Shown here: piece by piece, positions 12,188-33,835 of the stretch
How the letters are laid out: each line of letters starts with the position of its first letter
Numbering within the stretch: position 1 is the stretch's first letter
Notes under the pieces: model-generated
The model's input: only the letters and a program-made list of their open reading frames with translations
What the model was told of the DNA's origin: nothing
The model's database searches: none
Assembly: GCA_942490765.1 (NCBI GenBank)
Contig: CALNYM010000011.1
Location: 36,829 to 76,828, forward strand
Direction: 5' to 3'
Source: an uncultured Desulfobacterales bacterium
GTDB lineage: Bacteria > Desulfobacterota > Desulfobacteria > Desulfobacterales > 4572-123
Length of the DNA: 40,000 bases
Program-made: the position numbers and the translations under genes

Positions 12188-12519
12188 TGGTTCCTCCTCT
12201 ACTTTTTAGGTTTAACGTTCAATGTGAAATCAACTTGCCGGTTTTTAAAAAAACGCAATTTTGAGTTGTTGATTACTTTTAGCAACATCAGATTTGAATT
12301 GATGGTTTTAGCTCAACTTCTATGGGGCCATAAGATTTTGAATTAATGTCAGATAGTATACAATAGGTTCGATCAAAAGTATATAAATTTTTTATTTAAT
12401 ATAAAATCAATAGCTTGTATCGAAAAGAAGAACTTTCCATTTTTTCGAAAGGCCCTGGCCCGCCGGCGCATCATGGGCGACTGTGGGGCCCTGGCCAGAA
12501 CAGCAAGGAACCAGCCTGT

Positions 12520-13971: not shown

Positions 13972-15575
13972 GTTCGGTTTCCGGTGTCAGGGTTTTTGTT
14001 TATTTCCAAGGAATCCGGCATATTCCCCGGATTCCATAATTCCTGAGGATCAAGCTGCCGCTTCAGGCAGCGGATAAGTTTCAAACGGTTGGGCAACGGC
14101 ATGGATCGAAACAGGCCTTTCCTGATTTTGCCGGCCCCGTGTTCTGTAACGACACTGCCTCCCAGGGCATCGATCCGTCTGGCCCAGTTTTCAACAAGTC
14201 GTTGTCCCCGATCAAATTCCCCGTAATCCCGTGGCAGTATATTGACATGCAGGTGTCCATCGGCCGCATGGCCGAAAATGGCGGCCTTGAGTCCGGATGC
14301 CGCTAAATCGGTTTGATACAGGGCTATCAGTTCAGACAGGGAGGTGCCTGCAAGGCGCATGTCCGTTCCGAGTTTGGTTATCCGGGAATCGGTCTGTCTT
14401 GCCGTGTCGATGAGTCGATTGACCGCTTCCGGAGCGCCACGGCGGAACAGGCGCAGCCGCTCGGTCTCCATCTTACCGCAAGCGGCCCAGGTTGCGGCGG
14501 GATCGCAGCCGGATTCGGCGGCCGTTTCCATCAGCCATTCACACAGGGGATCGATCTCCTCAGCGCTGTTGCCGTGGATTTCCATATACACGGCGGTGGT
14601 AACGCTGTGCTGCCAATCCGGCAGGTCTTTCAAACGGGTGTTTACCTGCTTGAATTCCCGGATACTCTCAAGTGTGGTGTGATCCATTAACTCAATGGCC
14701 ACGATGCGGGTGGCGGATTGGGTTTTCGGCCGTTGATTGACGGATTCAACAAACGTTACGGCCCCGGACTGATCGTTGAAAAAAAAGACGATGCCCCACA
14801 GCTCGCTGGGAAGTGGCTTCAGGGCTAACGTCAGCTCGGTGATAACGCCAAGCATGCCCTGACTTCCCAGATACAGATCTAATAGATCCACTGTTGAACC
14901 GGGATCAAGGTCTGTCGGATCCAGAGGCAGTGTGCCGCCCCCCGGCAACGGGCACAGGCCGTCTGAAACAACATACTCACCCCTTGCAATCGAATGGCCG
15001 TGTCCTTTGCCATCAACAACCCGTATGCTTTTTATATGGTCACCGGCCGGCCCGTAATGGTGTGCGCAGATGCCCCTGCTGTTGCTGGCGGCAATGCCGC
15101 CGACAGATGCCGACGATTCGGATGGATCGGGAGGCCAGAACAGCCGGCCCGCCTCCCTGAAAGCCCTAAACGCGGTGAGTGCCTGTATGTCCCAGTCCGC
15201 CGTATCAAACCGGCGGTTTTCAAGCCGGCAATCAAGTTCCGAAAGAAGGATTCCCGGCTCAACCCGTATGGAAACGTTGCCGTCCTGATCCTGTTCCATG
15301 CCCGTTACCCGGGTCATTTTAGACAGATTCATGATATGGCCCCCGGCAGGTACGGCGCCACCCGTGATCCCGGTTCGGCTGCCCTGGACAGTGATCGGGA
15401 TTTGCCGCTCAAACAGGGCGCTGACAATCTCCCGGACCTGGGCTTCGCTCCGGGGAAAGGAGATGCTTTCAGCGTTGCCGGAGGTTCTGGACTCATCTGT
15501 CAGATACTCATTGTAAAGGGCCTCCAACGGTAGGATTAACTTGTCAGATTGGTCTGTCGGCATTGTCTCTTTCAT
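13968..15575 (-). CDS. FAD-binding oxidoreductase (GlcD / D-lactate dehydrogenase-like, FAD_binding_4 family)
   Basis: 535 aa with an FAD-binding PCMH-type N-domain (ITVQGSRTGITGGAVP...). It has ATGA overlaps with both neighbouring genes. Confidence 0.8.
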   Translation of the reverse strand: MKETMPTDQSDKLILPLEALYNEYLTDESRTSGNAESISFPRSEAQVREIVSALFERQIPITVQGSRTGITGGAVPAGGHIMNLSKMTRVTGMEQDQDGNVSIRVEPGILLSELDCRLENRRFDTADWDIQALTAFRAFREAGRLFWPPDPSESSASVGGIAASNSRGICAHHYGPAGDHIKSIRVVDGKGHGHSIARGEYVVSDGLCPLPGGGTLPLDPTDLDPGSTVDLLDLYLGSQGMLGVITELTLALKPLPSELWGIVFFFNDQSGAVTFVESVNQRPKTQSATRIVAIELMDHTTLESIREFKQVNTRLKDLPDWQHSVTTAVYMEIHGNSAEEIDPLCEWLMETAAESGCDPAATWAACGKMETERLRLFRRGAPEAVNRLIDTARQTDSRITKLGTDMRLAGTSLSELIALYQTDLAASGLKAAIFGHAADGHLHVNILPRDYGEFDRGQRLVENWARRIDALGGSVVTEHGAGKIRKGLFRSMPLPNRLKLIRCLKRQLDPQELWNPGNMPDSLEINKNPDTGNRT

Positions 15576-16579
15576 CCATCCGTTCCGGATCCAGGGTGGG
15601 TGGGAAGGGTCTTGCCGGTTTTTTCCGCCAGGATGACCTTTTCCAGTTCCATGAGGATCGGCAGCATCTCCCCGACAAGGCCGACATGGGCAATCTGAAA
15701 GATCGGGGCTTTGGGGTCTGTATTGATGGCCACGATAAAGTCACTGGCGCTGATTCCGGCAGTGAAAACAGCGCTGCCGGAAACACCGGCTATAATACAG
15801 AGCCTTGGTGACAGGATCAAGCCGGAAGCACCGATCAGGCGGTTCATGTCGGTCCAGGCGTTCATCACCACCGGACGGCTGGCGCCCAACCCAGCTCCGA
15901 TACGGGCGGCAATCCCTTTGATACGTTCCACGGTTGCTTTATCGCTTGCCCCCTGACCCACGACAATCACCAGATCCGCATCTGCCAGACCGGTATTGGA
16001 TTGGTCCGGAATGGTCACGGTTGTCTTCAGCCAATCGCATTGCGCCTCGTTCAGTGTGATGATTTCCGTGTGGTGATCTTGCAGCGGGACCATTCGCATC
16101 GGCCGGCACGGCTGTTTTGCCATTGCCAGACAATAGGGGGGCTGGGTCAGTATAAATGTCGCTCTTAAATTGTTTCCATACACCGGTTTTGTGACCTTGA
16201 CCGTATCACGTGCCGGACAATAGGATAGGGTCTGAAGACAGGCGCTTCCGTTGAGCCGATGGGCCAGACGCGTGGCCAGTTCCTGGCCCAGTCCACCACT
16301 GGGAAACAGGATCAGGTCCATGGGAAAGCGGTCTGTTAATTGTAACAGTAATTGCAGATACGATTCGGGTAAAGGGGCATCATGCTTGACGGCCACCAGC
16401 TTGACGGCTGACAGTGAACAGTCTAACTCGGGAAGAGATACGGGCGGTGGCCCCTTGTAAAAGAGCCACAGGGCCACACTGTGAAAACGGGGGGCACTGT
16501 CCTTGAGGCGTGCATTGATATCACCGGTCTGCTGCTGTATGGAGGCACTGTCCAGGAACATCACAATGGCGGCTTTCAT
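15572..16579 (-). CDS. etfA: Electron transfer flavoprotein alpha subunit (EtfA/FixB-like)
   Basis: 335 aa. The C-terminal ETF-alpha FAD-binding signature region is PRLCIIAGVSGSAVFTAGISASDFIVAINTDPKAPIFQIAHVGLVGE. Confidence 0.75.
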   Translation of the reverse strand: MKAAIVMFLDSASIQQQTGDINARLKDSAPRFHSVALWLFYKGPPPVSLPELDCSLSAVKLVAVKHDAPLPESYLQLLLQLTDRFPMDLILFPSGGLGQELATRLAHRLNGSACLQTLSYCPARDTVKVTKPVYGNNLRATFILTQPPYCLAMAKQPCRPMRMVPLQDHHTEIITLNEAQCDWLKTTVTIPDQSNTGLADADLVIVVGQGASDKATVERIKGIAARIGAGLGASRPVVMNAWTDMNRLIGASGLILSPRLCIIAGVSGSAVFTAGISASDFIVAINTDPKAPIFQIAHVGLVGEMLPILMELEKVILAEKTGKTLPTHPGSGTDG

Positions 16580-17400
16580 CGGTTCAACCTGTTTTTAAGA
16601 TAGTGATCATAGAGGTGCCGGACCATCTGATGGGGGTTCTGGCCGTCGATAAAAACACAGGCCTGTTTTGTCTTGGGGCGCTCGAGATCCACAAGGGTTT
16701 TCCCTTTTGGGCGTATGCTGTTGTCGCCGACGGTCAGGTCCCTGCCTGGCACGATGGTTACCTGCCTTTTTTTCGCAGCCAGTTTCTGTTTCAGTGTGGG
16801 AAGGCGCAGACAGGGTGCGTCCAGGGACTGGCCGATGGTCAGCACCAGCGGCAGCCTGACGGTTTGCACCAGAACCGCGCCGTCAATCCGGCTCTCTACT
16901 GTCAACCGGTCCGGTTCGTCTGTCCTGATCACCCGGGTCACTTCGCGAATACAGGGCCACCCAAGCTGTTCTGCAATCAACAGCCCGGTCTGCCAGTTGT
17001 CGCCATCCCCGCCCTGGATGCCTGAAAAAACAAGCTCGTGGCCGTTTCGCCGGATATATTCGGCTATCAGAAAGGAGATACCGGATGGATTGAACCTCAG
17101 GTCCAGGTCCGCGCTGCACTGAATTCTTACGGCATGGTCATACCCGATGGCCATCAGGTGCCTGAGGAACAGGTCTCCCTGCGGGTCATCCACGGTCAGG
17201 GCGGTAAGGTCTGCCGTGTCCGGCAGGTGTCCTGATGGCTGTGAGAGGGTGAGCGCCATTTCCAATGCACTTTCGTCAAAGCAGTTGAATATCCGCCTGA
17301 CAAAACCGGTATCGACACAATGACGCTCATCCCAGGTCCAGTCCTTTTCGGACAACCTTGCGTAATCGGCTATGATCTTGAAACAAACGATGATTTTCAT
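16576..17400 (-). CDS. etfB: Electron transfer flavoprotein beta subunit (EtfB/FixA-like), divergent
   Basis: 274 aa. It has the MKIIVCFKIIAD N-terminus typical of ETF-beta and is adjacent to and coupled with etfA. Confidence 0.7.
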   Translation of the reverse strand: MKIIVCFKIIADYARLSEKDWTWDERHCVDTGFVRRIFNCFDESALEMALTLSQPSGHLPDTADLTALTVDDPQGDLFLRHLMAIGYDHAVRIQCSADLDLRFNPSGISFLIAEYIRRNGHELVFSGIQGGDGDNWQTGLLIAEQLGWPCIREVTRVIRTDEPDRLTVESRIDGAVLVQTVRLPLVLTIGQSLDAPCLRLPTLKQKLAAKKRQVTIVPGRDLTVGDNSIRPKGKTLVDLERPKTKQACVFIDGQNPHQMVRHLYDHYLKNRLNR

Positions 17401-18854
17401 TTGTCCATGGGATAGATGGTTCCTGCGTTCATGATGCCGTTGGGATCAAATTGATCCTTTAACCCTTTCAAAATATAATAGGCTGATCCGTGCTCAATTT
17501 TAGTCCAGGGGGTCCGGTATTTGCCGATGCCATGGTGGTGCACCATCGAGCCCCCGACCTTCAGGGTTTCCTCCACAATCAACGCATTTAACGGAATGTG
17601 GTACTTGGTGATCTCTTCCTCCGGTTTGCAGTCTTTGACATCGTAGTCATAGACAAAGTACAGATTGGTACCGGTCTGGTAGCTGTGGGAAGAATGTCCG
17701 CCCAGCATGGTCAGATCGTCCGCATGGGGGAAATCCGACCGGATCCGTTGGATGGCGTTTTCATAGATGGTGTTGATCGTATCCCAGTTGCCCGAGACTT
17801 CCGTGGTGAACCCGATGTGATGGTTTTTGCGGATGAGTTCACGTTCTTCGGCAATTTTATCCGGTCCCCAGCACAGATGGTTGAACCAGTTCTCGACAAT
17901 TCGACTGTCAATGCGCCGGCATTCCGCGTAGTTGTCGACAATCTCTTCGATTCCCCGGGCCGTGGCCTCGGCCAGGTGTTTATTGCCCTCTGCCAGGAAC
18001 ATCAGAACGCACTGGTCGGGTGCAAACTGATCGAAACTGTGCTGGGTGCCGTCTTCCGCATCGTAAAGGCGCGCCATCGAAGGGCGATACCCATGGACCA
18101 TGACTTCCCGCAGGATCTCAAACCCTTTTTCCATGGAATCCAGCCGCCAGGCCAGGAACTGGTTGTTTTCCGGGAAATACTTGAAAATTTTAACGGTGAC
18201 TTCGGTAATAAAGCACAGTGCCCCTTCATTGCCGATGATCACGTGGCGGATATCCGGGCCGCATGAACGGCGGGGAACGTTTTTAATCCGGGTGATCTCA
18301 CCGTTGGGGAACACGGCTTCCAGTCCGACGACCATATCTTCGATGGCGCCATAGAGGGTGGAAAACTGCCCGATGCTGCGGGTGGCCACCAGGCCGCCCA
18401 TATGGGCCAACGGTTTTGACTGGGGAGAATGGCCGGTGGTATACCCCTGTTCCCGGAGCCGGTCTTCCAGATCACCTAAAACCACACCGCACTGGGTCGT
18501 TGCCAACATATTGGTGGGATCGATCTTGATGATCTGGTTCATCTGTGACCCGTCAAGCACCACGGAATTTTCAACGATGGTTTCCAGGCCCCCCTCCGTG
18601 GCGGTGCCCCCGGTGCGGGCCACGGAATTGATTTGATTCTGGTTCAGGAAGGTCAACACATCTGCGACCTGCTTCGCGTCTGCCAGCTTGACCACGGCCG
18701 CAGGGATCGGGGTGGTATAAACACCGAATATTGTTTCGTATTTTTTATACCGATCATGGCTGTTTTCCTCTAGCACCCTGGCATCGGTGATCACGCGCTG
18801 CTCACCGACAATGGTTTTGAGCTGATCGACAATCGCTTCACGGGTCAATGTCAT
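17397..18854 (-). CDS. FAD-linked oxidase resembling the alkyl-DHAP-synthase-like branch of the GlcD superfamily
   Basis: 485 aa. GHSPQSKPLAHMGGLVATRSIGQFSTLYGAIEDMVVGLEAVFPNGE resembles the AGPS-type motif GH.P.S....GG.v.TR..G....YG.IED.V. Confidence 0.8.
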   Translation of the reverse strand: MTLTREAIVDQLKTIVGEQRVITDARVLEENSHDRYKKYETIFGVYTTPIPAAVVKLADAKQVADVLTFLNQNQINSVARTGGTATEGGLETIVENSVVLDGSQMNQIIKIDPTNMLATTQCGVVLGDLEDRLREQGYTTGHSPQSKPLAHMGGLVATRSIGQFSTLYGAIEDMVVGLEAVFPNGEITRIKNVPRRSCGPDIRHVIIGNEGALCFITEVTVKIFKYFPENNQFLAWRLDSMEKGFEILREVMVHGYRPSMARLYDAEDGTQHSFDQFAPDQCVLMFLAEGNKHLAEATARGIEEIVDNYAECRRIDSRIVENWFNHLCWGPDKIAEERELIRKNHHIGFTTEVSGNWDTINTIYENAIQRIRSDFPHADDLTMLGGHSSHSYQTGTNLYFVYDYDVKDCKPEEEITKYHIPLNALIVEETLKVGGSMVHHHGIGKYRTPWTKIEHGSAYYILKGLKDQFDPNGIMNAGTIYPMDK

Positions 18855-18913
18855 GATAAATCCTTTTTTACGTATGATTGGTAAATAAACCTGTTTTTAT
18901 CCGTTCATTCTTT

Positions 18914-19690
18914 TTATCGTACCATATAGCCTCCGTCAACAATGAGCACCTGGCCATTCAAATAGTCGGAGGCCCGGCTGGCCAGAAACACGACCGTTCC
19001 CATCAGGTCCTGGCGTTCACCCCAGCGATTGGCGGGGATACGATCGAGGACCCGTTGATTGGTTACCGGATTGCTCCTGGTCCGGGTTGTCATGTCGGTG
19101 GCATAATAGCCCGGTGCAATGCCGTTTACCTGGATATCGTATTGTGCCAGTTCATCGCCGTAGGACTTGGTCAGCCCTGCGAGGCCATGTTTTGTCGCCG
19201 CATAGGCCGGACCGTCCCGTCCTCCCAGGTAAGAATAGAGGCTGCAGATATTGATTATCTTACCGCTTTTCTGGGGGATCATTATCTTGGCCGCTTCATG
19301 ACTCAGCTCGAATGCGGCTGTCAGGTTGACGGCCACCATGGGATCCCAGTCAGCTCGGCCAAATTCCAATACAGGCTTCAACCGGCTGATACCGGCATTG
19401 TTGACCAGAATGTCCAGGCTGCCGAGTTTTTCCAGGCAGGTTTCAATGATCTGCTTCGGTGCGCCGTTCCCCGTGATGTCAATTTCCATCAATTCAACGG
19501 CCACACCCTGTTTTTCAATTAATTGCCGGGTTTCGCCATTATCCGTGACATAACTGGGAATGAAAAGATTGGCGCCGGCTTTTGCCAGGGCAGCTGAAAA
19601 CGCCAGCCCCAATCCTCTGTTGCCGCCTGTCACAATGGCTGTTTTCCCTTTCAGGGAAAAAAAATCCAATGAAAAATCATCTATTTCCAA
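18914..19690 (-). CDS. Short-chain dehydrogenase/reductase (KduD / gluconate-5-dehydrogenase-like)
   Basis: 258 aa with TGGNRGLG cofactor motif and YAATKHG catalytic YxxxK. It has a TTG start with GAGGAG 9 nt upstream. Confidence 0.85.
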   Translation of the reverse strand: MEIDDFSLDFFSLKGKTAIVTGGNRGLGLAFSAALAKAGANLFIPSYVTDNGETRQLIEKQGVAVELMEIDITGNGAPKQIIETCLEKLGSLDILVNNAGISRLKPVLEFGRADWDPMVAVNLTAAFELSHEAAKIMIPQKSGKIINICSLYSYLGGRDGPAYAATKHGLAGLTKSYGDELAQYDIQVNGIAPGYYATDMTTRTRSNPVTNQRVLDRIPANRWGERQDLMGTVVFLASRASDYLNGQVLIVDGGYMVR

Positions 19691-19767
19691 TGGCTTGAAC
19701 TCCTCTTAAAAGGTTTTTAAGGGTAACCGACACGATCATCAGCCCCATCATTATGTCCTGCATGGTG

Positions 19768-19929
19768 TCATACCACGCCCGGATAATCGATCTCTTTAGC
19801 GACGCCTGCATCACTGATCAGGACGACGTTCCTGGATTCCGTTAATGCAGAAATTTCATCTCCCATCTGTTCGACGCGATCAATCCCGAAGGAGATGTTG
19901 CCAACCCCTGGAAAAGTAAATGGAAGCAT
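19768..19929 (-). pseudogene. Remnant of an iron-containing alcohol dehydrogenase (N-terminal 53 codons only)
   Basis: Below the ORF-track size cutoff. Hand translation gives MLPFTFPGVGNISFGIDRVEQMGDEISALTESRNVVLISDAGVAKEIDYPGVV*, which matches the Fe-ADH N-terminal pattern (F.P..I.FG.g....g.e......v.lv.D.gv.k). Full-length family members are much longer, so this is truncated. Confidence 0.45.
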
Positions 19930-20185: not shown

Positions 20186-20210
20186 GATGGCGATTTTTTA
20201 CGACGCCATC
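20186..20210 (-). terminator. Hairpin overlapping the mttB stop codon (weak terminator candidate)
   Basis: Minus strand reads GATGGCG-TCGTAAAAAAT-CGCCATC (7-bp stem) followed by TACTGCGTTTTAGGGATTTT. The T-tract is not immediately adjacent to the stem. Confidence 0.3.
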
Positions 20211-21681
20211 ATTCTTTGATGCCCAGTTCTTTTTCGGCGCCGTCAACAATGTCACGCACTTGTTTGAGGACAGCGTCTGAAAGTTTCGGCGGTTCATATG
20301 TCTCAAGGATGTGACGAACCGCTTCGCCGGCCCGCTCGTATGCGTCTTTTGAACCGTTTTCTTCCCAGCGGAATCTCATCTGCCGGTTCAGCAGCTTCGG
20401 ACTTGTGGTCAGCCGCATGTGCTTGAAGGTGGATTCGTGGGCGAGATAATCCTTGAAAGGGCCGACCTCCTTGATCGTATCGATGGACAGGGTTTCTTCA
20501 TTGACCTCAATGCCGTTTACCGTCCGTTTGATCATACCGGCCACTTCGTTATCCAATACCAGTTGTGCCAGATCGAAAGTGATGCCCATTTCCAGCATTC
20601 CCAAGCCGTAAATTACGTTGCACCCTGACAACGCAGGCAAGATACCGGTGATGGTCTTTTCATGGCCGGACTGGTAGTCAACCACTTTGCTGTCGCCCTA
20701 TCCACCGGCGGCGAAACTGGGCAACCCATAGTAGCGGGCAAGCCGGGCCACCGCCGCATTGATCATGGCCGTCTCAGGGGCACCCACCGTTGCCGTGGCA
20801 TACTTCAGGTCCAGAGGGCAGGTGGAACTGGCATAAATGAACGGCGTCCCTTTTTGAACCAGTTGGCCCAGAACAAGACTTGCCAGATTTTCGCTGTTTT
20901 GCTGTACCAATGTGCCGGCAATGTGGATGGGGGAAGAGCCGCCGGTCATGGCCATGCCGATACAGTTTAACCCAATGCCGTTTCGGGCCGCTTCGATAAT
21001 GATGTCACAATGGTGGGACGACAGCTTCAAGGGGCTGATGGGACAGGTCACAAAGGTCAGAAACGGTCTTTCCCTGAATTTATCCATACCCCCGGCGATG
21101 GCAGCGCACATTTCAAGAATTTTTCCGCACTGATACCGATCCACCGGACCCAGCCAGTGATGCTTGGTCGTATTGGTGAGTGACGCCTCGGCATTATGCA
21201 GTGCCTGCACCCTGGGGTCTTTGTCATGGGAAAGCATGCAGCGTTCATAGGTTTCCACATGTTCCAGAGAATCGATGAGCCGGGCGGCCATCTCGATATC
21301 GGCCTTGGTGGTTTTGCGATGTTCTCCCGTATAAGGATCGACAAACATGATGCCTTCACCAAAATTGGTGAACGTCACCCGGTTGGCTTCCAGAACCACA
21401 TCGCTCTCCGGTATGCGGCCGTAGGCATGAAACGTAGCCGGCGCCGTCCGGATCGACGCTTCCACCAGGTAGGGTGGCAGGGTAACGACTTTTGTTTTTT
21501 CATTCACACTGGCGCCGGCAGCACCGAAGATCTGCCTTGCCTCTTCGCTTTCCACAAAAACACCGGTGCATTTCAGGATTTCAAGGGAACCCAGGTGTAT
21601 TTCATGCACTTCGTCGTCGGTGAGTGTGTTTAGACTGAAGCCGCCGCTGGACAATTTCCCGGATTTGGTTGGTCGCTTCAT
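20209..21681 (-). CDS. mttB: Trimethylamine:corrinoid methyltransferase MttB with an in-frame UAG (pyrrolysine) codon, 490 codons
   Basis: Track ORFs 20698..21681 and 20209..20685 are in the same frame, and only TAG (20700..20698) interrupts it: ...[50 protein letters not shown]... AGGAGG lies 5 nt upstream of ATG 21681. The product has MttB family layout throughout. Confidence 0.85.
20698..20700 (-). other. UAG recoding site (predicted pyrrolysine, codon 328 of mttB copy 1)
   Basis: The plus strand reads CTA, which is TAG on the minus strand, in the context GGT GGA TAG GGC GAC AGC AAA. Confidence 0.8.
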
Positions 21682-21703
21682 TTTTTCCTCCTGTAGAAGT
21701 CAG

Positions 21704-23098
21704 TTAACTATTTTTTTCGATGGCGTTTTTGACGGCGGTTAGTATTTGATCCATCTGTTCTTTAGTGGCGACAAGGGCCGGCGCAAAGAGCATCATGGTG
21801 TTCATACCCGGCAGGCTGGAGTTGGTTCTGCCCACCAGCACGCCCTGGGCGGCCACATCCGCCACCAGTTTACCCATAAACGCTTCGGAAACAGGCGTTT
21901 TGGATGCCTTGTCCGTCACGAACTCCACCCCACAGAAAAGACCTTTGCCGCGGACGTCTCCAACAATGGGAAAATCCAAAAACGCTTTCAGGCCATTGAG
22001 CAGATATTCGCCTACCACCCTGCTGTTTTCCACAAGGTTTTCATCATCAATGATGCGGGCCGTCTCAAGACCCGCGGCCATGGCGCCGGTACACCCGCCA
22101 TAGGTGCTGATATCCCGGAAATAATTCAACCGTTTTTCCGGTGTCCCGGTATCGAGGAACAGGTTAAAAATGTCATCGCTTATGGCGGTAACCGATAATG
22201 GCTCATAGCAACTGGCAACGCCCTTGGCCATGGTCACCATGTCCGGCGTTACATCATAGTGTTCATGGCCCCAGAATTTTCCGGTACGACCGAACCCGCA
22301 GACCACCTCGTCAAAGATCAGGTAGGCCCCATATTTTTTGCAGATCTGCTGGAGTATGGGATAGTATTCCTGGACGGGCACCAGGATGCCGCCGCCAGCG
22401 ACAATGGGTTCCACGATCACCCCCCCCACGGTGTCCGGGCCCTCTTTTAAAATGACATCTTCCAGGGCGCGGGCGCATTCGATGTTACAATCCGGATAGG
22501 TCTTGCCAAAGGCGCACCGGTAGCAAAGCGGGTGGGGAAACTCGGCAAACCCTTCAGCCATGGGTCCGAAATGCGCTTTTCGTTCACTCTGTCCCCCGGC
22601 GCTCAATGCACCGATGGTGGTACCGTGATAGTCCCGGTCACGGTAGATCACCTTGAATTTACCTTTACGGTCATCGTTGATTTTCGCAAGCTGCCGGATG
22701 ACCTTAAAGGCCTTCTCATTGGCTTCGGAACCGGAATTTGAAAAAAATATTTTCTTTTGATGGGGAAGTTTCTCTGCGAGTTTTTTAGCAAATTTAATGG
22801 CGGGGACTGTGCCGACCGCACCGGCGTAGTAGCACAGTTTTGTCAACTGTTCAGCCACCGCCTCGGCAATACTCCTGCGACCGTAACCCACCACCACGCC
22901 CCACACACCACCGGAGACCGCATCAAGATATTCCCGGCCCCGGATATCTTTTACCACAAGGCCGTTGCCTTCCACAATAACCATCTGTTCCTTGTCTGCA
23001 AAGACACTATGGTCCTTGAGATGATGCCATAAAAAATCCTTGTCCGCCGCAACCATCTCTTCCACATCGTAATCAAGCCAGTTTGTTTTCGGATCCAT
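21704..23098 (-). CDS. Class-III PLP-dependent aminotransferase (omega-amino acid / beta-alanine / taurine:pyruvate type)
   Basis: 464 aa with the DEVVCGFGRTGKFW motif and the PLP-lysine context VTMAKGV. The stop lies 22 nt before the mttB start. Confidence 0.85.
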   Translation of the reverse strand: MDPKTNWLDYDVEEMVAADKDFLWHHLKDHSVFADKEQMVIVEGNGLVVKDIRGREYLDAVSGGVWGVVVGYGRRSIAEAVAEQLTKLCYYAGAVGTVPAIKFAKKLAEKLPHQKKIFFSNSGSEANEKAFKVIRQLAKINDDRKGKFKVIYRDRDYHGTTIGALSAGGQSERKAHFGPMAEGFAEFPHPLCYRCAFGKTYPDCNIECARALEDVILKEGPDTVGGVIVEPIVAGGGILVPVQEYYPILQQICKKYGAYLIFDEVVCGFGRTGKFWGHEHYDVTPDMVTMAKGVASCYEPLSVTAISDDIFNLFLDTGTPEKRLNYFRDISTYGGCTGAMAAGLETARIIDDENLVENSRVVGEYLLNGLKAFLDFPIVGDVRGKGLFCGVEFVTDKASKTPVSEAFMGKLVADVAAQGVLVGRTNSSLPGMNTMMLFAPALVATKEQMDQILTAVKNAIEKNS

Positions 23099-23205: not shown

Positions 23206-24780
23206 TTATTTTGCATCCGGCATGGAAGAGATTGTTCCATCCCAGGTATCCACGAGACCGCAGGCTTCCTGGTCTTCGGGAAACCAGGTGGCGGTGACGC
23301 ATTTGGATTCGGTAAAGAAACTGATACCATCTTTGCCCATCACATGCAGATCTCCAAAAAAGGATTGTTTATGACCGGTAAAACCGAAAATACCCAGTGG
23401 TACCGGGATGCCGACATTGACACCCACCATGCCGGCATCGGTCCGTTTGGAAAATTCCCGCGCGTAATGGCCGTTCTGGGTATAAATGACCGAACCGTTG
23501 GCGAAACGGCTGCTGTTCATCAAGGCCAGTCCTTCCTCAAAATTTTGGACCCGTTTGACGCAGAGTACCGGGCCAAAGACTTCCTCCCAGCCGATGGTCA
23601 TTTCCGGTGTCACATGGTCAAAGATGCAGGGCGCCAGATAAAAACCGCCCTCATGACCCGCTACCTTGGGATTACGGCCGTCCACGATCAGTTCGGCGCC
23701 CTCTTCGATTCCTTTTTCGATCCAGTCGGTGATAAACTTCAGATGGCCCGCGTTCAAGATGGGCCCCATGCCGGTGTCCGGGTCATAGGCAGGGCCAAGG
23801 TTCATTTCGGCTACAAATTTTTTCAGCAGCGCAATCAGTTCATCCGCAATGCACTCTTCCACAACGATCACCGGGCAGGCCATACACCGGGCACCGGCAC
23901 AGCCGCAATAGGCATTGATAATACCCCTGGCGGTTCGCTCCAGTTTTGCATCCCGCATGACCAGCGCATGGTTTTTGGCTTCGGTGAGGGCCTGCACGCG
24001 CTTACCGTTGGCAGCGGCGGTGGCATAGATGTGCTTGCCGGTTTTGGTGGACCCCACAAAAGACACCCCGGCAATATCGGGATGGCTAAGGAGAATCTCG
24101 GCCTCATTACGGCCTGCGGTGACCAGATTGAGTACCCCCTCGGGCAGTCCGGCCTCATGCCAGAGTTCCAGGAGTCGCATGGACGTCTGGGGCACAAAAC
24201 TGGCGGCTTTCAGCACCATGGTATTGCCCGTGGCGATACACAGCGGTGCCATCCAGCCATGGGGAATCATGGCGGGGAAATTCCAGGGTGCAATACCGGC
24301 GAAAACGCCGACGGGGTGTCTGTAGAGAACCGTGTCATATCCGGCGGAAGCGTTCATCAGGGATTCTCCCTTCATCAGGTGGGGGGTCCCGCAGGCAAAT
24401 TCGACCACTTCGTTGACTTTCAGCACATCGCCCATGCTTTCCCGCCAGTTTTTACCTTCTTCCTGGCACAAAAGATGGGTCAGTTCTTCCAGATGTTCAT
24501 CCACCAGCGCCTTCATACGATACAACACCTGAACCCGTTTACTGACCGGGGTGTCGGCCCAGGCCGGAAACGCCGCCTTAGCGGAATGAATGGCCGATTC
24601 GACTTCTTCGGATGTGCACTGCGGCGCCATGGCGATCACTTCGCCGGTGGACGGATTATAGCAATCCATGTATTTTGTTGTTTTTGATTCAAGCCACTGC
24701 CCGTTGACGCAGTATTTCAGTTTTTTGACCGAATTTTTTGAAGACGATCCACTCTCCATAAAATATCTTGATTTCTGCAA
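23206..24780 (-). CDS. mmsA: CoA-acylating methylmalonate/malonate-semialdehyde dehydrogenase (ALDH family)
   Basis: 524 aa. It is colinear with MMSDH/IolA-type enzymes as recalled: GIAPWNFPAMIP, GARCMACPV (catalytic Cys), AGMVGVNVGIPVPLGIFGFTGHKQSFFGDLHVMGKDGISFFT. The start is ambiguous between TTG 24780 and ATG 24759. Confidence 0.85.
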   Translation of the reverse strand: MQKSRYFMESGSSSKNSVKKLKYCVNGQWLESKTTKYMDCYNPSTGEVIAMAPQCTSEEVESAIHSAKAAFPAWADTPVSKRVQVLYRMKALVDEHLEELTHLLCQEEGKNWRESMGDVLKVNEVVEFACGTPHLMKGESLMNASAGYDTVLYRHPVGVFAGIAPWNFPAMIPHGWMAPLCIATGNTMVLKAASFVPQTSMRLLELWHEAGLPEGVLNLVTAGRNEAEILLSHPDIAGVSFVGSTKTGKHIYATAAANGKRVQALTEAKNHALVMRDAKLERTARGIINAYCGCAGARCMACPVIVVEECIADELIALLKKFVAEMNLGPAYDPDTGMGPILNAGHLKFITDWIEKGIEEGAELIVDGRNPKVAGHEGGFYLAPCIFDHVTPEMTIGWEEVFGPVLCVKRVQNFEEGLALMNSSRFANGSVIYTQNGHYAREFSKRTDAGMVGVNVGIPVPLGIFGFTGHKQSFFGDLHVMGKDGISFFTESKCVTATWFPEDQEACGLVDTWDGTISSMPDAK

Positions 24781-25121
24781 AATGTTATATCCCCTTTATT
24801 TTTAAGGTTTTTGTTAAATTTTTAGTTGATCTGTACGGAAGAATGTAAAAAACATGTTTGAATTTTTTTTGTCGAAGATATTGTCTGCATCATTAGGCGT
24901 TGTTAACTACGATGTCAAGTAAAAAATAACCTCAAGCTTACTTTTTCAGTTCATTGTTTTTATTTTTTCTACGTTTTTAGCTTTTTTTGTTTGTATTTTT
25001 ATGATAGATAATTTCAATCTGTTCCATAACAGGCATTTTAAACCAACCTGTGCATCGGCTTGAACCATCTCCGCGGTGGGGAAACAGGTCTCTGTTCAAA
25101 CACTAAAAAATGAGGATTTTT

Positions 25122-25809: not shown

Positions 25810-26123
25810 TCGCCGAGCCTTCAGATATTGATTCACATTGAATAACTTTTGTTAATTTACGGTGGTGGCCACTGATGGTACACAATATCATTTCAGCTCA
25901 TAACCCGTAAACGCCGTGTTCCGGGCTTATACCCAAGCCGTCCCTGTCGGGTCGGATTTCTACCGTCTTAATACGGTGCCTAACTTACCTGAACAAAGGT
26001 CTGCAAAGTATGCCTTTCTTTTGCATAACAGATCGATTCCGTCTAATCGGTTACATGTAATCCCTTCTCACGGATTTTCATGTTATGCGAAAAACAAAAA
26101 ACGCTCTTAAAAAGGAGGAAAGC

Positions 26124-27515
26124 ATGGGAAAAATTAAAACCCGAATGGGCGATGGCTTCAAGGTCGAAATGACCGAAAGCGAAGTCCGAAAAGCCCTGGA
26201 AGAAGGGACTCAGGATGCGGCAGAACGCGCCCGGGTCGAACCGCTGACCCCGGACGATTTACAACAGATTTTTGAAATTTTTGCCTGTCCTTATCGAATC
26301 GTTGGTGTTGAGGAAGGCAATGAAGTCGTTCTTACCTACGACAGCCTTAACACCAAAATCAAGCGGGCCCAGATTTCAGCCAGCAAGATCCAGTCCCTGC
26401 AGATTTGTGAAAGGGCCCTGGGGGCAGACACCCTGGAGCTTGCCCATATCGACTATAGCTATAAACCCGTAAAACCGATCATTCCCTTTGAAAAACCGAT
26501 TATGGAGCAGGCTGTCCTGATCACAATCCCGGCATTGCTCTATGGCGCCATGCCCAACCTGGGGCTCTACAGCCAGCCGGACGGTCCATGCCCCAATCCT
26601 GCGGATCTTCTTCCCCATGGGAAAATTGCCGAAGCCAGGGCATCCTATGAAGAGGCTGCCGAATATGCCATAGCCGACATGGTTTATGTGGGCAGTGAGA
26701 TGTACGAAGCCGGCGCAGACGGCATCAATTTTGATACCACGGCAGCAGCCGGGGATGCGGAATTTTATGCAACCCTCAAGGCGGTGGAGATTCTCAGAAA
26801 AAAATATCCCGCCATGGGCATCCAGATGGGTATGGCCGCGGAATTTGTATTGGGAATGCACGGAGAGATTGAATATAACGGGGTCCGTCTGGCCGGGCTC
26901 TACCCCCACCAGCAGGTCAAACTCGCCGAGGAGGCGGGTGTAAACATTTTTGGACCGGCCGTCAATATCGTCACCAACGAATCGTTGCCCTGGAATATTG
27001 CCCGCTCGGTTACCTGGACCAAAGCCTGTACGGATGTTGCCAAGATTCCGGTGCACGCATGTCTGGGTATGGGGGTCGGCGGTGTCCCCCTGGCCCTTAC
27101 GCCACCCATCGATGCCCTTTCACGGGCATCAAAGGCCCATGTCGAGATTTGCAGGCTGGACGGGTTGTAGGTGGGTGTCGGAGACCCGTGCGGGATGCAC
27201 GCTGCACATGCAATAGTATCGGGAATGGGTGGAATACGCACTGCCGGAGATCTGGTAGCGCGTATGCAACTCAATGGCTCGATGAAAATTGATGCAGCAA
27301 AAAAACATGTCGCAGATAAGTTGAACATTTCTGTAGCGGATATTGCGGATCCGGTGGTGATGAACGAACTCCGGGAAGATCTGGATATCGGCCGCGTCAA
27401 TGAGGCCCCCGGTGTGGCCAAGGGTATTGATGCGAAGTTTCGGATCGCCAGGCTTCTGGACATTAACATCAACTCGGTGAACATATTCAAGGAGAAAATA
27501 GAACGCGACATATGA
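26124..27515 (+). CDS. mtbB: Dimethylamine:corrinoid methyltransferase MtbB with an in-frame UAG (pyrrolysine) codon, 463 codons
   Basis: Track ORFs 26085..27170 and 27171..27515 abut in the same frame and are separated only by TAG: ...[47 protein letters not shown]... AAGGAGG lies 6 nt upstream of ATG 26124. MtbB-family blocks are present (DYSYKPVKP, LYGAMPNLGLYSQPDGP, GADGINFDTT, GMHGEIEYNGVRLAGLYPHQQ). Confidence 0.9.
27168..27170 (+). other. UAG recoding site (predicted pyrrolysine, codon 349 of mtbB)
   Basis: Context is GAC GGG TTG TAG GTG GGT GTC GGA GAC. The downstream frame stays open for 115 codons with no RBS of its own. Confidence 0.85.
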
Positions 27516-27659: not shown

Positions 27660-28313
27660 ATGACGACAATTGAAGTACGCTTTGAAGAAGCCAAAAAAGC
27701 CATCGTAGCGTGTGACGCTGAAAATGCATCGCTGGTGGCGACACAGGGTTTAGCAGATGGAATTGACCCTGTTGAATTTTTGAACAAGGGTTTCATTCCC
27801 GGAATAAATGAGGTCGGAGAGCTTTTCGGTAAAGGCCGGTTGTTTCTTCCCGAATTGATTATCGCTGCAGAAGCCATGCGTCAGGTAACCGATATTATTA
27901 ATGGTGCACTTGAAGCCGCCGGAACGATTTCAAAAAAGGCAGGGAAAATTCTCATGGCCACTGTTCAGGGTGATGTCCATGATATCGGTAAAACCATTGT
28001 GGTGTCACTTTTCAAAGCCAACGGATTTGAGGTGCTGGATTTGGGTCGAGATATTTCCAATGAAAAAATTATTGAAGAAGCTGTGCGGTTTGAAGCCGAT
28101 ATTATCGGTACCAGCGCGCTTCTCACCACAACAATGCCAGCCCAGCAAAAACTTGAAAAAGAACTGAAGAAAGCCGGCCTGAAGGGAAAAATCAAGACGA
28201 TTGTCGGTGGGGCGCCCGTAACACAGAGATGGGCCCAGCGCATCGGCGCAGATGCTTACGCCCAGGATGCGTCAGATGGCGTTCAGAAAGCAAAGCTGAT
28301 GTTAGGCATCTGA
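27660..28313 (+). CDS. mtbC: Methyltransferase-cognate corrinoid protein (B12-binding; MtbC-like by position)
   Basis: 217 aa. It has an N-terminal helical cap domain plus a Rossmann B12-binding domain with the DxHxxG motif (GDVHDIGK). AAGGAG lies 7 nt upstream. Confidence 0.8.
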   Translation: MTTIEVRFEEAKKAIVACDAENASLVATQGLADGIDPVEFLNKGFIPGINEVGELFGKGRLFLPELIIAAEAMRQVTDIINGALEAAGTISKKAGKILMATVQGDVHDIGKTIVVSLFKANGFEVLDLGRDISNEKIIEEAVRFEADIIGTSALLTTTMPAQQKLEKELKKAGLKGKIKTIVGGAPVTQRWAQRIGADAYAQDASDGVQKAKLMLGI

Positions 28314-28463
28314 ACGCAATGGCAATAACCGATTTTAACCGGGGAACCGTACCTGCCGAAAGGCACACGAACGGTTCGGGGAGGAGAATCAGGAGCAAGC
28401 GGTATTTTATTATTTCATTTGTCATTTTTAACCCCCTATTGAACAAAAGTAAGGAGGATGCAA

Positions 28464-29729: not shown

Positions 29730-29739
29730 TGGTGTAATA

Positions 29740-29766
29740 AATGAGGCCACCTTGTGTGGCCTCATT
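29740..29766 (+). terminator. Intrinsic terminator candidate after the binding-protein gene
   Basis: The 11-bp perfect stem AATGAGGCCAC / GTGGCCTCATT has the 5-nt loop CTTGT and begins 11 nt after the stop. It is followed by GTTGCGCTTTTCC. Confidence 0.6.
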
Positions 29767-30158
29767 GTTGCGCTTTTCCATTGGAATTTATCAAAAAACA
29801 GTGGATCTGGGGAATTGCTTTCCAACGTTTCTTGTGAATGTGGGGCATGTCGTAACACGTTTCTTCAAAGGTGCCGGGATCGCCACCATAGTCGTTCAGA
29901 CCCTTTTTAAAGCGCTTGAACGCCAAGTCTCTTTGCCATCTGTTGCAAACAGAACCTCTCGGTCCGAGAAAGTTCGCGGACAGATTTACCCGTCTGTCGC
30001 CTCGTCGACGGCAGTTTTTATCCATCTTTTTCATAATAAGAAAAAATACTTTTTTTATCCCAAGGAAAGCGACTGATTGCTCGTCATTAGCGTTTCGCTC
30101 TACAAACAACGAGGATTCCTCATACCCAGTCTTAGTAACTACTGACCCATGGTGAATT

Positions 30159-30890: not shown

Positions 30891-30938
30891 AGCAGTATAC
30901 TTGGAAAATGGTAAATCAAGCCATAAAGGGAGGCGCAA

Positions 30939-31646: not shown

Positions 31647-31682
31647 CAAACAATTAATGAATAACGGCAGGGGAAAGTATCT

Positions 31683-32720: not shown

Positions 32721-32745
32721 TCAGCAAGAATAAACAGGAGCAGCC

Positions 32746-33780: not shown

Positions 33781-33835
33781 AAACAGAAATACGGCGCGAA
33801 AGTTTGTCCGAAGCGCTTACAGATGCCGGAAACAA

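What the first reader, a model, noticed from the sequence alone, without database searches (positions are those of the whole stretch)
20698..20700. In-frame amber codon in mttB copy 1 at the GG-UAG position
ORFs 20698..21681 and 20209..20685 share a frame, and the only break is TAG ([22 protein letters not shown]). The joined product is 490 codons, the normal size for MttB. The TAG sits at codon 328, close to the Pyl position I recall for archaeal MttB (about 334). The same GGT GGA TAG context recurs independently in the second, divergent mttB copy. Random nonsense mutations would not be expected to produce that.
Basis: partly seen in the sequence, partly recalled or inferred. Interest (0 to 1): 0.8.

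Follow-up and report, generated by a model that had tools for sequence, protein, structure and literature searches.

The report
Pyrrolysine codon in bacterial trimethylamine methyltransferase
The in-frame TAG is real and sits exactly where archaeal trimethylamine methyltransferase carries pyrrolysine, so this sulfate-reducer-type bacterium almost certainly reads it as the 22nd amino acid; this is a correct catch of a phenomenon already described in this bacterial order.

Summary
The minus-strand gene 21681..20209 has one internal stop, TAG at 20700..20698 (codon 328 of 490).

- **Family and position.** The joined protein passes the NCBIfam equivalog for Pyl-type MttB (670 bits, cut-off 525). 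Its codon 328 aligns with Pyl334 of Methanosarcina barkeri MttB (PDB 7XCL).
- **Conservation.** All 83 Pyl-type homologues found in 78 genome loci carry TAG at this column, never TAA or TGA. The flanking Gly codons vary synonymously.
- **Selection.** dN/dS downstream of the TAG is 0.05-0.15, as low as upstream. This also holds against a relative about 97% identical in DNA.
- **Other recoded genes.** A second mttB (43% identical) and an mtbB in the window have TAG at their Pyl positions. Only 2 of 31 window genes end in TAG.
- **Origin.** The window comes from an uncultured Desulfobacterales bacterium.

Two caveats apply. No pylT/S/B/C/D genes lie in the window or in 9.7 kb of flanks, and I could not read the rest of the genome. 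Relatives do carry them. The Rfam "PYLIS" hit reflects coding-sequence similarity and has no structural support.

Pyl-MttB in marine Desulfobacterales is already published, so this is a new member of a known kind.

The parts
20209..21681 (-). mttB copy 1: 490-codon Pyl-type trimethylamine:corrinoid methyltransferase gene. It reads through the TAG and ends with TGA at 20209..20211.
   Evidence: Translation. Pfam MTTB covers residues 17-486, E = 9e-91. NCBIfam TIGR02369 scores 669.9 bits against a cut-off of 525, covering model positions 1-469 of 469. Against M. barkeri MttB (7XCL), E = 2e-108.
20698..20700 (-). In-frame TAG, codon 328: the inferred pyrrolysine codon.
   Evidence: It aligns with Pyl334 of 7XCL. 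TAG is present in 83 of 83 homologues.
20212..20697 (-). 162 codons downstream of the TAG, coding for the end of the TIM barrel, the dimerisation loop and the C-terminal helices.
   Evidence: dN/dS is 0.05-0.15 against 13 orthologues, with dS above 0.8 for the twelve distant orthologues and 0.17 for L005. It is 0.054 against the ~97%-identical MAG. Identity to M. barkeri MttB is 42.7% here and 40.5% upstream. Domain limits come from PMC9842639.
20601..20700 (-). Rfam PYLIS_3 (RF02510) match. I read it as conserved coding sequence, not a folded element.
   Evidence: Score 60.5 bits against a gathering score of 38. Folding z-score is +1.14. Covariation is not above shuffles: 413 of 500 shuffles reach the observed value. 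The alifold consensus energy is -1.46 kcal/mol.
21687..21692 (-). Shine-Dalgarno AGGAGG, 5 nt upstream of the mttB1 ATG.
   Evidence: Read directly from the sequence.
21704..23098 (-). Class III aminotransferase gene, ending 22 nt upstream of mttB1 on the same strand; probably the same operon.
   Evidence: NCBIfam NF005812 scores 480 bits, just below its cut-off of 488.
23206..24780 (-). CoA-acylating methylmalonate-semialdehyde dehydrogenase gene, the first gene of the putative operon.
   Evidence: TIGR01722 scores 535.7 bits against a cut-off of 448.5. A promoter-like site lies at 24918..24889, but such sites are not enriched over shuffles.
34598..36091 (-). mttB copy 2: 497 codons, TAG at 35105..35107 (codon 329), 43% identical to copy 1.
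   Evidence: TIGR02369 scores 622.1 bits. Its X aligns with residue 334 of 7XCM/7XCL. Rfam PYLIS_3 scores 81.6 bits.
33921..34550 (-). Corrinoid protein gene (MttC-like) directly downstream of mttB copy 2. It is the nearest candidate methyl acceptor for an MttB.
   Evidence: TIGR02370 scores 199 bits against a cut-off of 215, and Pfam finds B12-binding_2 plus B12-binding.
26124..27515 (+). mtbB, Pyl-type dimethylamine methyltransferase gene, with in-frame TAG at 27168..27170. The probable start is 26124; the mechanical ORF starts at 26085.
   Evidence: TIGR02368 scores 513.4 bits against a cut-off of 369.1. Rfam PYLIS_2 starts on the TAG. AAGGAGG precedes position 26124.
27660..28313 (+). Corrinoid protein gene (MtbC-like).
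   Evidence: TIGR02370 scores 224.2 bits against a cut-off of 215.3.
1..521 (-). First 173 codons of a third, non-Pyl MttB-superfamily gene that runs off the left edge of the window. It serves as an internal negative control.
   Evidence: The full gene is L004:10535-11992: 485 aa, no TAG, Met at the Pyl column, 27% identical to mttB1.

Best explanation
The TAG at 20698..20700 is a sense codon for pyrrolysine.

**Proposed mechanism**
- A tRNA-Pyl with anticodon CUA, charged by a split bacterial PylS (PylSc plus PylSn) with pyrrolysine made by PylB/C/D, competes with release factor at this UAG. These genes are inferred to lie elsewhere in the genome.
- The ribosome continues for 162 more codons and makes a 490-residue MttB.
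- The full-length protein is a TIM-barrel methyltransferase. The electrophilic imine of Pyl328 binds trimethylamine as a quaternary adduct, so that one methyl group can be passed to the Co(I) corrinoid of a partner protein such as the MttC-like or MtbC-like proteins in this window.
- In a Desulfobacterales sulfate reducer the methyl group would then go to tetrahydrofolate and be oxidised.
- Termination at the UAG would give a 327-residue fragment. That fragment lacks Pyl, the catalytic Tyr, the last part of the barrel and the dimerisation region, so it would be inactive.

**What is shown and what is inferred**
- Shown: the TAG and its exact homology to Pyl334; family membership; conservation of the TAG; and selection on the downstream codons, which implies translation past the TAG.
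- Inferred: that the inserted residue is Pyl, that the pyl genes exist elsewhere in this genome, that the substrate is trimethylamine, and the fate of the methyl group.
- No dedicated RNA element appears to be needed.
For: - **Single interruption.** TAG at codon 328 is the only interruption of a 490-codon frame.
- **Family membership.** TIGR02369 'trimeth_pyl' equivalog scores 669.9 bits against a cut-off of 525, matched end to end across the TAG. Pfam MTTB covers residues 17-486.
- **Pyl column.** Codon 328 falls on the X of M. barkeri MttB 7XCL, which is Pyl334 (PMC9842639).
- **Active site.** Three other active-site positions named in that paper are conserved in the alignment: Gly110 = Gly108, Met249 = Met243 and Tyr364 = Tyr358.
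- **TAG conservation.** It is TAG in 83 of 83 Pyl-type homologues at 44-99% identity. The two preceding Gly codons use all four synonyms.
- **Selection against distant orthologues.** NG86 dN/dS downstream of the TAG is 0.05-0.15, against 0.03-0.08 upstream, over 13 orthologues. dS exceeds 0.8 for the twelve distant ones (above 1 for eleven) and is 0.17 for L005.
- **Selection against the close relative.** Against the ~97%-identical MAG, the three downstream segments (mttB1, mttB2, mtbB) together have 35.5 synonymous and 9.5 non-synonymous changes. All three TAGs are kept and there are no frameshifts.
- **Recoding at organism level.** mttB2 and mtbB in the same window have TAG at their own Pyl positions.
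- **TAG avoided as a terminator.** Stop codon use is TAA 21, TGA 8, TAG 2.
- **Machinery in relatives.** tRNA-Pyl(CUA) with pylB, pylC, pylD and pylSn lies next to mttB/mtbB in related loci L026 and L032, pylB/C/D/Sn also in L037, and tRNA-Pyl in L070. Complete pylSc-B-C-D-Sn clusters lie in methylamine islands of related metagenome contigs.
- **Genome-level co-occurrence in a relative.** PylB P0157 sits on a 6,969,660-bp NCBI record, the same length as CP070746.1. That chromosome also carries TAG-containing mttB.
- **Published precedent.** Pyl-MttB with its machinery has been reported in marine Desulfobacterales MAGs (PMC8318568).
Against: - No pylT, pylS, pylB, pylC or pylD is present in the window, in the 4.5-kb right flank, in the 5.2-kb left flank, or in the 21-kb stretch of the closely related MAG.
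- Ten look-ups of PylD or PylB homologues all led to other samples. Presence of the machinery in this genome is therefore inferred, not shown.
- mttB1 has no corrinoid-protein gene next to it. The nearest are 6 kb and 13 kb away.
- TAG still ends two genes in the window, so decoding must be ambiguous.
- No protein-level evidence exists.
Confidence: 0.88

Rival explanations
1. Pseudogene: the TAG is a nonsense mutation and the gene is dead.
For: The gene is split into two ORFs, and public gene callers report such genes as two fragments. No pyl genes are in view.
Against: TAG sits at exactly the same column in 83 of 83 homologues and is never TAA or TGA. dN/dS downstream is 0.05-0.15. There are no further stops or frameshifts. 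The same pattern appears in two other genes of the window.
Confidence: 0.01
2. Split gene: translation stops at the TAG and restarts at GTG 20685, giving a 327-residue and a 158-residue polypeptide that assemble into an enzyme without pyrrolysine.
For: A GTG lies five codons after the TAG.
Against: Across homologues, the first possible start codon after the TAG lies 1, 5, 6, 16, 19, 20, 23 or 32 codons away, so no restart site is conserved. The residues between the TAG and that GTG (G-D-S-K) are among the most conserved of the protein, with D and K invariant, and they would not be translated. No Shine-Dalgarno sequence precedes the GTG. In M. barkeri the residue at this column is the catalytic one.
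Confidence: 0.02
3. Read-through without pyrrolysine: the UAG is suppressed by a near-cognate or other suppressor tRNA that inserts a canonical amino acid such as Gln, Tyr, Lys or Trp.
For: The pyl machinery was not found for this genome. One paralogue elsewhere (L064:15243) carries TAT (Tyr) at this column.
Against: If a canonical residue sufficed, sense codons should be common at this column. Instead 83 of 84 Pyl-type sequences keep TAG. Non-Pyl relatives form distinct, distant families at 27% identity. Relatives encode tRNA-Pyl and pylBCD. In MttB, Pyl is the substrate-binding residue.
Confidence: 0.04
4. Pyl is inserted, but the copy 1 lineage is not a trimethylamine enzyme. It would act on another non-quaternary methylated amine linked to betaine breakdown.
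For: Copy 1 is only 43% identical to copy 2 and 41% identical to archaeal MttB. It has no adjacent corrinoid gene. In 9 of 13 orthologous loci from other genera, a dimethylglycine-dehydrogenase-like gene lies immediately upstream. ETF-beta/alpha genes follow in 9 loci (7 of them also have the dehydrogenase-like gene), usually with a non-Pyl MttB gene and, in 4 loci, a BCCT transporter gene further on. None of the 13 has a corrinoid gene within 10 kb.
Against: The TIGR02369 equivalog score is far above its cut-off. The equivalents of Gly110, Met249 and Tyr364 are conserved. The position equivalent to Thr111 is Glu, which would not favour an anionic substrate. Methylamine genes of all kinds cluster together in these bacteria.
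Confidence: 0.1

Closest known systems
MttB of Methanosarcina barkeri (Pyl334; PDB 7XCL/7XCM/7XCN; Paul et al. 2000; Li et al. 2023, PMC9842639)
   Same: Same family (PF06253, TIGR02369). UAG at the homologous column. The equivalents of Gly110, Met249 and Tyr364 are conserved. Same length class (490 against 495 residues). E = 2e-108.
   Different: The host is bacterial, and identity is only 41%. Thr111 is replaced by Glu. There is no adjacent mttC. The methyl group presumably goes to tetrahydrofolate rather than coenzyme M (inference).
Pyl-containing MttB of marine Desulfobacterales MAGs (Kivenson et al. 2021, PMC8318568) and of the Olavius algarvensis delta-1 symbiont (Zhang and Gladyshev 2007, PMC1976440)
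   Same: Same bacterial order. TAG-containing mttB with a corrinoid protein gene within a few genes and non-Pyl MttB paralogues in the locus. The organism also appears to use selenocysteine: a selD with in-frame TGA lies just outside the window.
   Different: In those genomes the pyl genes and tRNA-Pyl were identified; here they were not located. This window holds two deeply divergent Pyl-mttB genes plus a Pyl-mtbB. Copy 1 sits in an operon with an aminotransferase gene and a semialdehyde dehydrogenase gene.
Non-Pyl MttB superfamily, e.g. glycine betaine methyltransferase MtgB of Desulfitobacterium hafniense (PDB 2QNE, 9YCE)
   Same: Same fold and Pfam family. Also a corrinoid-dependent methyl transferase.
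   Different: MtgB has a sense codon (Leu) at the Pyl column and acts on quaternary amines. Its score against mttB1 is 226 bits, against 366 bits for true MttB. The window's own non-Pyl paralogue has Met there.
PYLIS_3, Rfam RF02510 (proposed pyrrolysine insertion sequence of mttB)
   Same: The 100 nt starting at the TAG score 60.5 bits, above the gathering score of 38.
   Different: The model has only 8 base pairs and the match is by primary sequence. There is no excess folding stability (z = +1.14). There is no covariation in 83 sequences.

Membership tests
Pyl-type trimethylamine:corrinoid methyltransferase MttB (TIGR02369 / PF06253) | MTTB domain spanning the whole protein, on both sides of the TAG | tested here: met
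   PF06253 covers residues 17-486, E = 9e-91.
Pyl-type trimethylamine:corrinoid methyltransferase MttB (TIGR02369 / PF06253) | Score above the curated equivalog cut-off of TIGR02369 | tested here: met
   669.9 bits against 525, covering model positions 1-469 of 469. Copy 2 scores 622.1 bits.
Pyl-type trimethylamine:corrinoid methyltransferase MttB (TIGR02369 / PF06253) | In-frame UAG at the column of Pyl334 of M. barkeri MttB | tested here: met
   AGGXGDSKV aligns with AGSXSDAKV of 7XCL. The position is Pyl334 per PMC9842639. Copy 2 aligns likewise.
Pyl-type trimethylamine:corrinoid methyltransferase MttB (TIGR02369 / PF06253) | Active-site residues that accompany Pyl (Gly110, Met249, Tyr364) | tested here: met
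   Gly108, Met243 and Tyr358 in the alignment. Thr111 is Glu109, but only its backbone is implicated. Copy 2 has Leu for Met249.
Pyl-type trimethylamine:corrinoid methyltransferase MttB (TIGR02369 / PF06253) | Codons after the UAG are translated (selection on the protein sequence) | tested here: met
   dN/dS is 0.05-0.15 downstream and 0.054 against the close relative.
Pyl-type trimethylamine:corrinoid methyltransferase MttB (TIGR02369 / PF06253) | Cognate corrinoid protein (MttC) encoded nearby | tested here: inconclusive
   None is adjacent to copy 1. An MtbC-like gene lies 6 kb away and an MttC-like gene 13 kb away, next to copy 2. Orthologues of copy 1 elsewhere also lack one within 10 kb.
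Pyl-type trimethylamine:corrinoid methyltransferase MttB (TIGR02369 / PF06253) | pylT, pylS and pylBCD present in the same genome | not testable with these tools
   They are absent from the window and from 9.7 kb of flanks. The rest of the 281-kb contig and of MAG CAXXLK01 could not be read. Ten look-ups reached other samples only. They are present in relatives.
Pyl-type trimethylamine:corrinoid methyltransferase MttB (TIGR02369 / PF06253) | Pyrrolysine found in the protein; trimethylamine-dependent corrinoid methylation | not testable with these tools
   Needs mass spectrometry and an enzyme assay.
PYLIS_3 cis-regulatory RNA (RF02510) | Score at or above the Rfam gathering score | tested here: met
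   60.5 bits against 38.
PYLIS_3 cis-regulatory RNA (RF02510) | Conserved secondary structure supported by stability or covariation | tested here: not met
   Folding z = +1.14. 77.7% of cells are paired against 78.1% in shuffles, and 413 of 500 shuffles reach the observed covariation score. The alifold consensus has 3 pairs at -1.46 kcal/mol.
Non-Pyl MttB superfamily (MtgB-type quaternary amine methyltransferases) | Sense codon at the Pyl column | tested here: not met
   TAG here. MtgB has Leu, and the window's own non-Pyl paralogue has Met.

The most novel reading that the evidence does not exclude
The copy 1 lineage of Pyl-MttB may use pyrrolysine on a substrate other than trimethylamine, perhaps a tertiary or secondary amine intermediate of betaine catabolism.

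- It has the signature FAAGG-Pyl-GDSK..DYQS.
- It is 43% identical to copy 2 and 41% identical to archaeal MttB.
- It has no adjacent corrinoid gene.
- In other genera a dimethylglycine-dehydrogenase-like gene lies just upstream and ETF genes usually follow, often with a non-Pyl MttB gene and sometimes a BCCT transporter gene.

If correct, this would be the first pyrrolysine enzyme outside the mono-, di- and trimethylamine trio.
Probability: 0.1. Interest if true: 0.7.

Novelty: new member of a known kind. Interest (0 to 1): 0.3.

Why it matters
**Annotation.** Standard gene callers cut these genes in two. The public assemblies of this very locus list mttB2 as 289- and 164-residue fragments and mtbB as 361 + 96 or 348 + 106. 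The organism's capacity to use tri- and dimethylamine is therefore invisible unless the TAG is recognised.

**Ecology.** Pyl-dependent methylamine use by sulfate-reducing Desulfobacterales diverts trimethylamine away from methanogens in sediments. This argument is made in PMC8318568. The present locus adds one more genome with three Pyl genes and, probably, selenocysteine as well.

**Limits.** It does not change what is known about the mechanism.

Tried and rejected
**1. Hunt for the pyl machinery of this organism.**
- ARAGORN found no tRNA in the window or in L001-L005.
- tblastn with PylB, PylC, PylD, PylSn and PylSc from relatives found nothing in the window or flanks.
- I ran database searches with PylD and PylB and two cluster listings.
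- Ten contig look-ups (P0064, P0030, P0174, P0151, P0251, P0269, P0258, P0140 and others) all landed in other samples.
- Only 3 of 77 related loci have pyl genes within 10 kb of mttB (a fourth, L070, has tRNA-Pyl). Their absence from this window therefore says little.

**2. PYLIS as a structural read-through element: rejected**.

**3. Pseudogene and split-gene readings: rejected**.

**4. The shared GGT GGA context as a signal: rejected.** The two Gly codons vary among homologues: GGT 58, GGC 22, GGG 2 and GGA 1 at the first; GGA 29, GGC 23, GGG 23 and GGT 8 at the second. The only strongly conserved neighbour is G at +4 (82 of 83), which is forced by the following Gly, Val or Ala codon.

**5. 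Promoter and terminator scan around the operon.** Counts were no higher than in shuffled sequence, so it is used only as a weak hint.

**6. Look-up of the AOR gene product.** It failed because the start codon is called differently in the public records.
Full report
**1. The observation**

On the minus strand, an ATG at 21681 is preceded by AGGAGG five nucleotides upstream. It opens a frame that runs to TGA at 20209 with one interruption, TAG at 20700..20698. The joined frame has 490 sense positions and the TAG is codon 328. The local sequence is GCC GCC GGT GGA TAG GGC GAC AGC AAA, translating as A-A-G-G-*-G-D-S-K.

A second gene, 36091..34598 on the minus strand, has TAG at 35107..35105 (codon 329 of 497) with the same GGT GGA TAG.

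Across all six frames of the window, only three places have two stop-free stretches of at least 100 codons separated by a single TAG. They are these two genes and a dimethylamine methyltransferase gene.

The TAG is not an assembly artefact. It is present in ENA and Logan assemblies at 99.0-99.8% identity and in a GTDB MAG at 95-97% identity.

**2. What the gene is**

- With X at codon 328, the protein matches Pfam MTTB over residues 17-486.
- It passes the NCBIfam equivalog model for the pyrrolysine-type enzyme, TIGR02369, at 669.9 bits against a cut-off of 525, end to end.
- Against all PDB sequences, the best hit is M. barkeri trimethylamine methyltransferase (7XCL, E = 2e-108). Codon 328 falls exactly on the X of that chain, AGGXGDSKV against AGSXSDAKV. 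The structure paper names that residue Pyl334 (PMC9842639).
- Three further active-site positions named in that paper are conserved in the same alignment: Gly110, Met249 and Tyr364 correspond to Gly108, Met243 and Tyr358. Thr111 is Glu, but only its backbone is implicated.
- The non-Pyl glycine betaine enzyme MtgB scores much lower (226 bits) and has Leu at the column.
- A third MttB-family gene runs off the left edge of the window (1..521, minus strand; full length in L004). It has no TAG, has Met at the column, and is 27% identical to copy 1. It serves as an internal control for what a non-Pyl relative looks like.

**3. Is the TAG read through?**

A scan of one genome per GTDB species returned 78 loci, nearly all Desulfobacterales or other Thermodesulfobacteriota.

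- *Codon conservation.* In these loci, 83 Pyl-type MttB sequences (44-99% identical to copy 1) carry TAG at this column. None carries TAA or TGA. The two Gly codons before it use all four synonyms, and the alignment of the next 100 nt varies with codon periodicity.
- *Selection against orthologues.* Over 13 orthologues of copy 1, NG86 dN/dS is 0.03-0.08 upstream of the TAG and 0.05-0.15 downstream. Downstream dS exceeds 0.8 for the twelve distant orthologues (above 1 for eleven of them) and is 0.17 for the close relative L005.
- *Selection in the recent lineage.* Against the ~97%-identical MAG (L005), the segments downstream of the TAG in mttB1, mttB2 and mtbB together show 35.5 synonymous and 9.5 non-synonymous changes. 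All three TAGs are retained and there are no frameshifts. Selection on the downstream protein sequence is therefore acting in this lineage now.
- *Deep conservation.* Identity to the archaeal enzyme is as high after the TAG (42.7%) as before it (40.5%).
- *No restart.* A restart model fails. The first possible start codon after the TAG lies at eight different distances among homologues, whereas the G-D-S-K directly after the TAG is nearly invariant.

**4. The wider locus and organism**

The window is a methylamine island of an uncultured Desulfobacterales bacterium. The closest genome is MAG CAXXLK01.

It holds the following genes:

| Gene | Coordinates | Note |
|---|---|---|
| mttB1 | 20209..21681 (-) | TAG at codon 328 |
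| mttB2 | 34598..36091 (-) | MttC-like gene directly downstream |
| mtbB | probable start 26124, to 27515 (+) | TAG at 27168..27170; MtbC-like gene follows |
| LIV-type ABC transporter | between the two corrinoid-protein genes (28458..33780) | absent from the MAG L005 |
| non-Pyl MttB paralogue | 1..521 (-) | runs off the left edge |

mttB1 itself follows a methylmalonate-semialdehyde dehydrogenase gene and a class III aminotransferase gene, with a 22-nt gap to the latter. It is probably co-transcribed with them.

Of 31 genes in the window, 21 end in TAA, 8 in TGA and 2 in TAG. Both TAG-terminated genes lie in blocks that the related MAG lacks. So TAG is rare as a terminator but still used, as expected for ambiguous UAG decoding.

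About 950 bp beyond the right edge, a selD-like gene has an in-frame TGA in AGSG-U-ASK. The organism therefore probably decodes selenocysteine too. This matches the 'dual genetic code expansion' described for marine Desulfobacterales (PMC8318568).

**5. The machinery**

This is the one test I could not complete. No tRNA and no pyl gene is in the window, in the 4.5 kb to its right, in the 5.2 kb to its left, or in the 21-kb stretch of the related MAG.

What these searches did show:
- Related loci L026 and L032 carry tRNA-Pyl(CUA) with pylB/pylSn or pylBCD/pylSn next to mttB and mtbB. L037 also has pylB/C/D/Sn within 10 kb of mttB, and L070 has tRNA-Pyl.
- Related metagenome contigs carry the full order mttC-mttB-mtbB-mtbC-pylSc-pylB-pylC-pylD-pylSn.
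- A complete Desulfobacterales chromosome (CP070746.1) that has TAG-containing mttB also appears to hold PylB. The evidence is a matching record length of 6,969,660 bp.
- Only 3 of 77 related loci have pyl genes within 10 kb of mttB, so their absence from this window is uninformative.

**6. Is there a read-through element?**

Rfam reports PYLIS_3 at both mttB TAGs and PYLIS_2 at the mtbB TAG, all above gathering scores. However:
- The PYLIS_3 model has only eight base pairs, and the match is by primary sequence.
- The 100 nt after the TAG fold no better than shuffles: z = +1.14 for mttB1, -0.12 for mttB2 and -1.0 for mtbB.
- On 83 aligned sequences, the Rfam pairs are no better kept than in shuffles (77.7% against 78.1% paired), and 413 of 500 shuffles reach the observed covariation score.
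- RNAalifold finds only a 3-pair hairpin at -1.46 kcal/mol.

I therefore treat the hits as conserved coding sequence. I infer that insertion works by simple competition between Pyl-tRNA and release factor.

**7. Mechanism, and how it compares with what is known**

*Shown:* a Pyl-type MttB gene whose UAG is homologous to Pyl334 and whose downstream codons are under protein-level selection.

*Inferred from the archaeal enzyme:*
- Pyl's imine adds trimethylamine to give a quaternary adduct.
- A methyl group passes to Co(I) of a corrinoid protein.
- Termination at the UAG would remove Pyl, Tyr358, the end of the barrel (barrel residues 82-395 in M. barkeri numbering) and the dimerisation loop.

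The closest described cases are M. barkeri MttB and the Pyl-MttB of marine Desulfobacterales MAGs and the Olavius delta-1 symbiont (PMC8318568, PMC1976440). This gene meets every sequence-level criterion of that family. It is a new member of a known kind.

**8. A loose end worth noting**

Copy 1 and copy 2 are as far from each other (43% identity) as each is from the archaeal enzyme. Orthologues of copy 1 in Desulfocicer, Desulfamplus, Desulfobacula, Desulfobacter and Desulforhopalus share a recurring neighbourhood:
- A dimethylglycine-dehydrogenase-like gene lies immediately upstream in 9 of 13 loci.
- ETF-beta/alpha genes follow in 9 of 13 loci; 7 loci have both features.
- A non-Pyl MttB gene usually lies further on, and a BCCT transporter gene in 4 loci.
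- None of the 13 has a corrinoid-protein gene within 10 kb.

That neighbourhood is for betaine catabolism, not obviously for trimethylamine. The equivalog score and the conserved active site argue for trimethylamine. A different non-quaternary amine substrate is not excluded, and I put it at about 10%.

**Verdict**

Novelty is low and interest is modest, at 0.3.

Noticed in passing
window 26085..27515 (+); TAG at 27168..27170: A dimethylamine methyltransferase gene (mtbB) also has an in-frame TAG. TIGR02368 scores 513 bits against a cut-off of 369, and Rfam PYLIS_2 starts on the TAG. The probable true start is 26124 (AAGGAGG upstream), which makes the TAG codon 349. The TAG is kept in the related MAG, with dN/dS 0.06 downstream.
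   Followed up: partly
window 34598..36091 (-); TAG at 35105..35107: The second mttB is only 43% identical to copy 1. It still has TAG at the Pyl334 column and passes TIGR02369 (622 bits). An MttC-like corrinoid gene follows at 33921..34550. It has Leu where M. barkeri MttB has Met249.
   Followed up: yes
window 1..521 (-), continuing in L004:10535-11992: A third MttB-superfamily gene (485 aa) without TAG has Met at the Pyl column. It lies next to a ferredoxin gene and an aldehyde:ferredoxin oxidoreductase gene. It is probably a quaternary-amine methyltransferase of unknown substrate.
   Followed up: partly
L001 2600..3670 (-), TGA at L001 3596..3598; about 950 bp beyond window position 40000: A selD-like gene has an in-frame TGA in the motif AGSG-U-ASK, that is, a selenocysteine codon. 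The organism probably decodes both Sec and Pyl.
   Followed up: partly
window 12486..19793 and 28307..33821: Two blocks are absent from the 95-97%-identical MAG CAXXLK01 (L005). The first holds an FGGY kinase, two GlcD-like FAD oxidases, ETF alpha/beta and an SDR. The second is a five-gene LIV-type ABC transporter between the two corrinoid-protein genes. The only two genes in the window that end in TAG (12520..13971 and 30939..31646) lie in these blocks.
   Followed up: partly
L002 1138..2493 (ENA ERZ21831104): In another sample, a DDE transposase gene sits between the MttC-like gene and the ABC permease gene of this same locus. The island is structurally plastic.
   Followed up: no
L064:15243: One Pyl-type MttB paralogue in an uncultured Desulfobacteraceae MAG has TAT (Tyr) instead of TAG in an otherwise typical CFVAGG-x-GDSK context. 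This is a single-base change away from the Pyl codon.
   Followed up: no
L006, L007, L009, L010, L011, L013, L015, L068, L080 (around the mttB1 orthologue): A recurring neighbourhood surrounds the mttB1 orthologue in other genera. A dimethylglycine-dehydrogenase-like gene (DAO + GCV_T, ~820 aa) lies immediately upstream in these nine loci. ETF-beta/alpha genes follow in seven of them, usually with a non-Pyl MttB gene and, in four loci, a BCCT transporter gene. No corrinoid-protein gene lies within 10 kb. The window species has a different upstream context.
   Followed up: partly
window 8446..10356 (-); L026 13301..15178; L101 11583..13472: A fused acetyl-CoA hydrolase/transferase + GNAT protein (about 630 aa) recurs in these methylamine islands. 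In two relatives it lies directly next to pylB-pylSn-tRNA-Pyl. Its role is unknown.
   Followed up: no
L001 8577..9953 and 17035..18465 (public gene calls): Public gene calls split the Pyl genes into fragments: mttB2 as 289 + 164 aa and mtbB as 361 + 96 aa. These genes are therefore mis-annotated in the source assemblies.
   Followed up: yes
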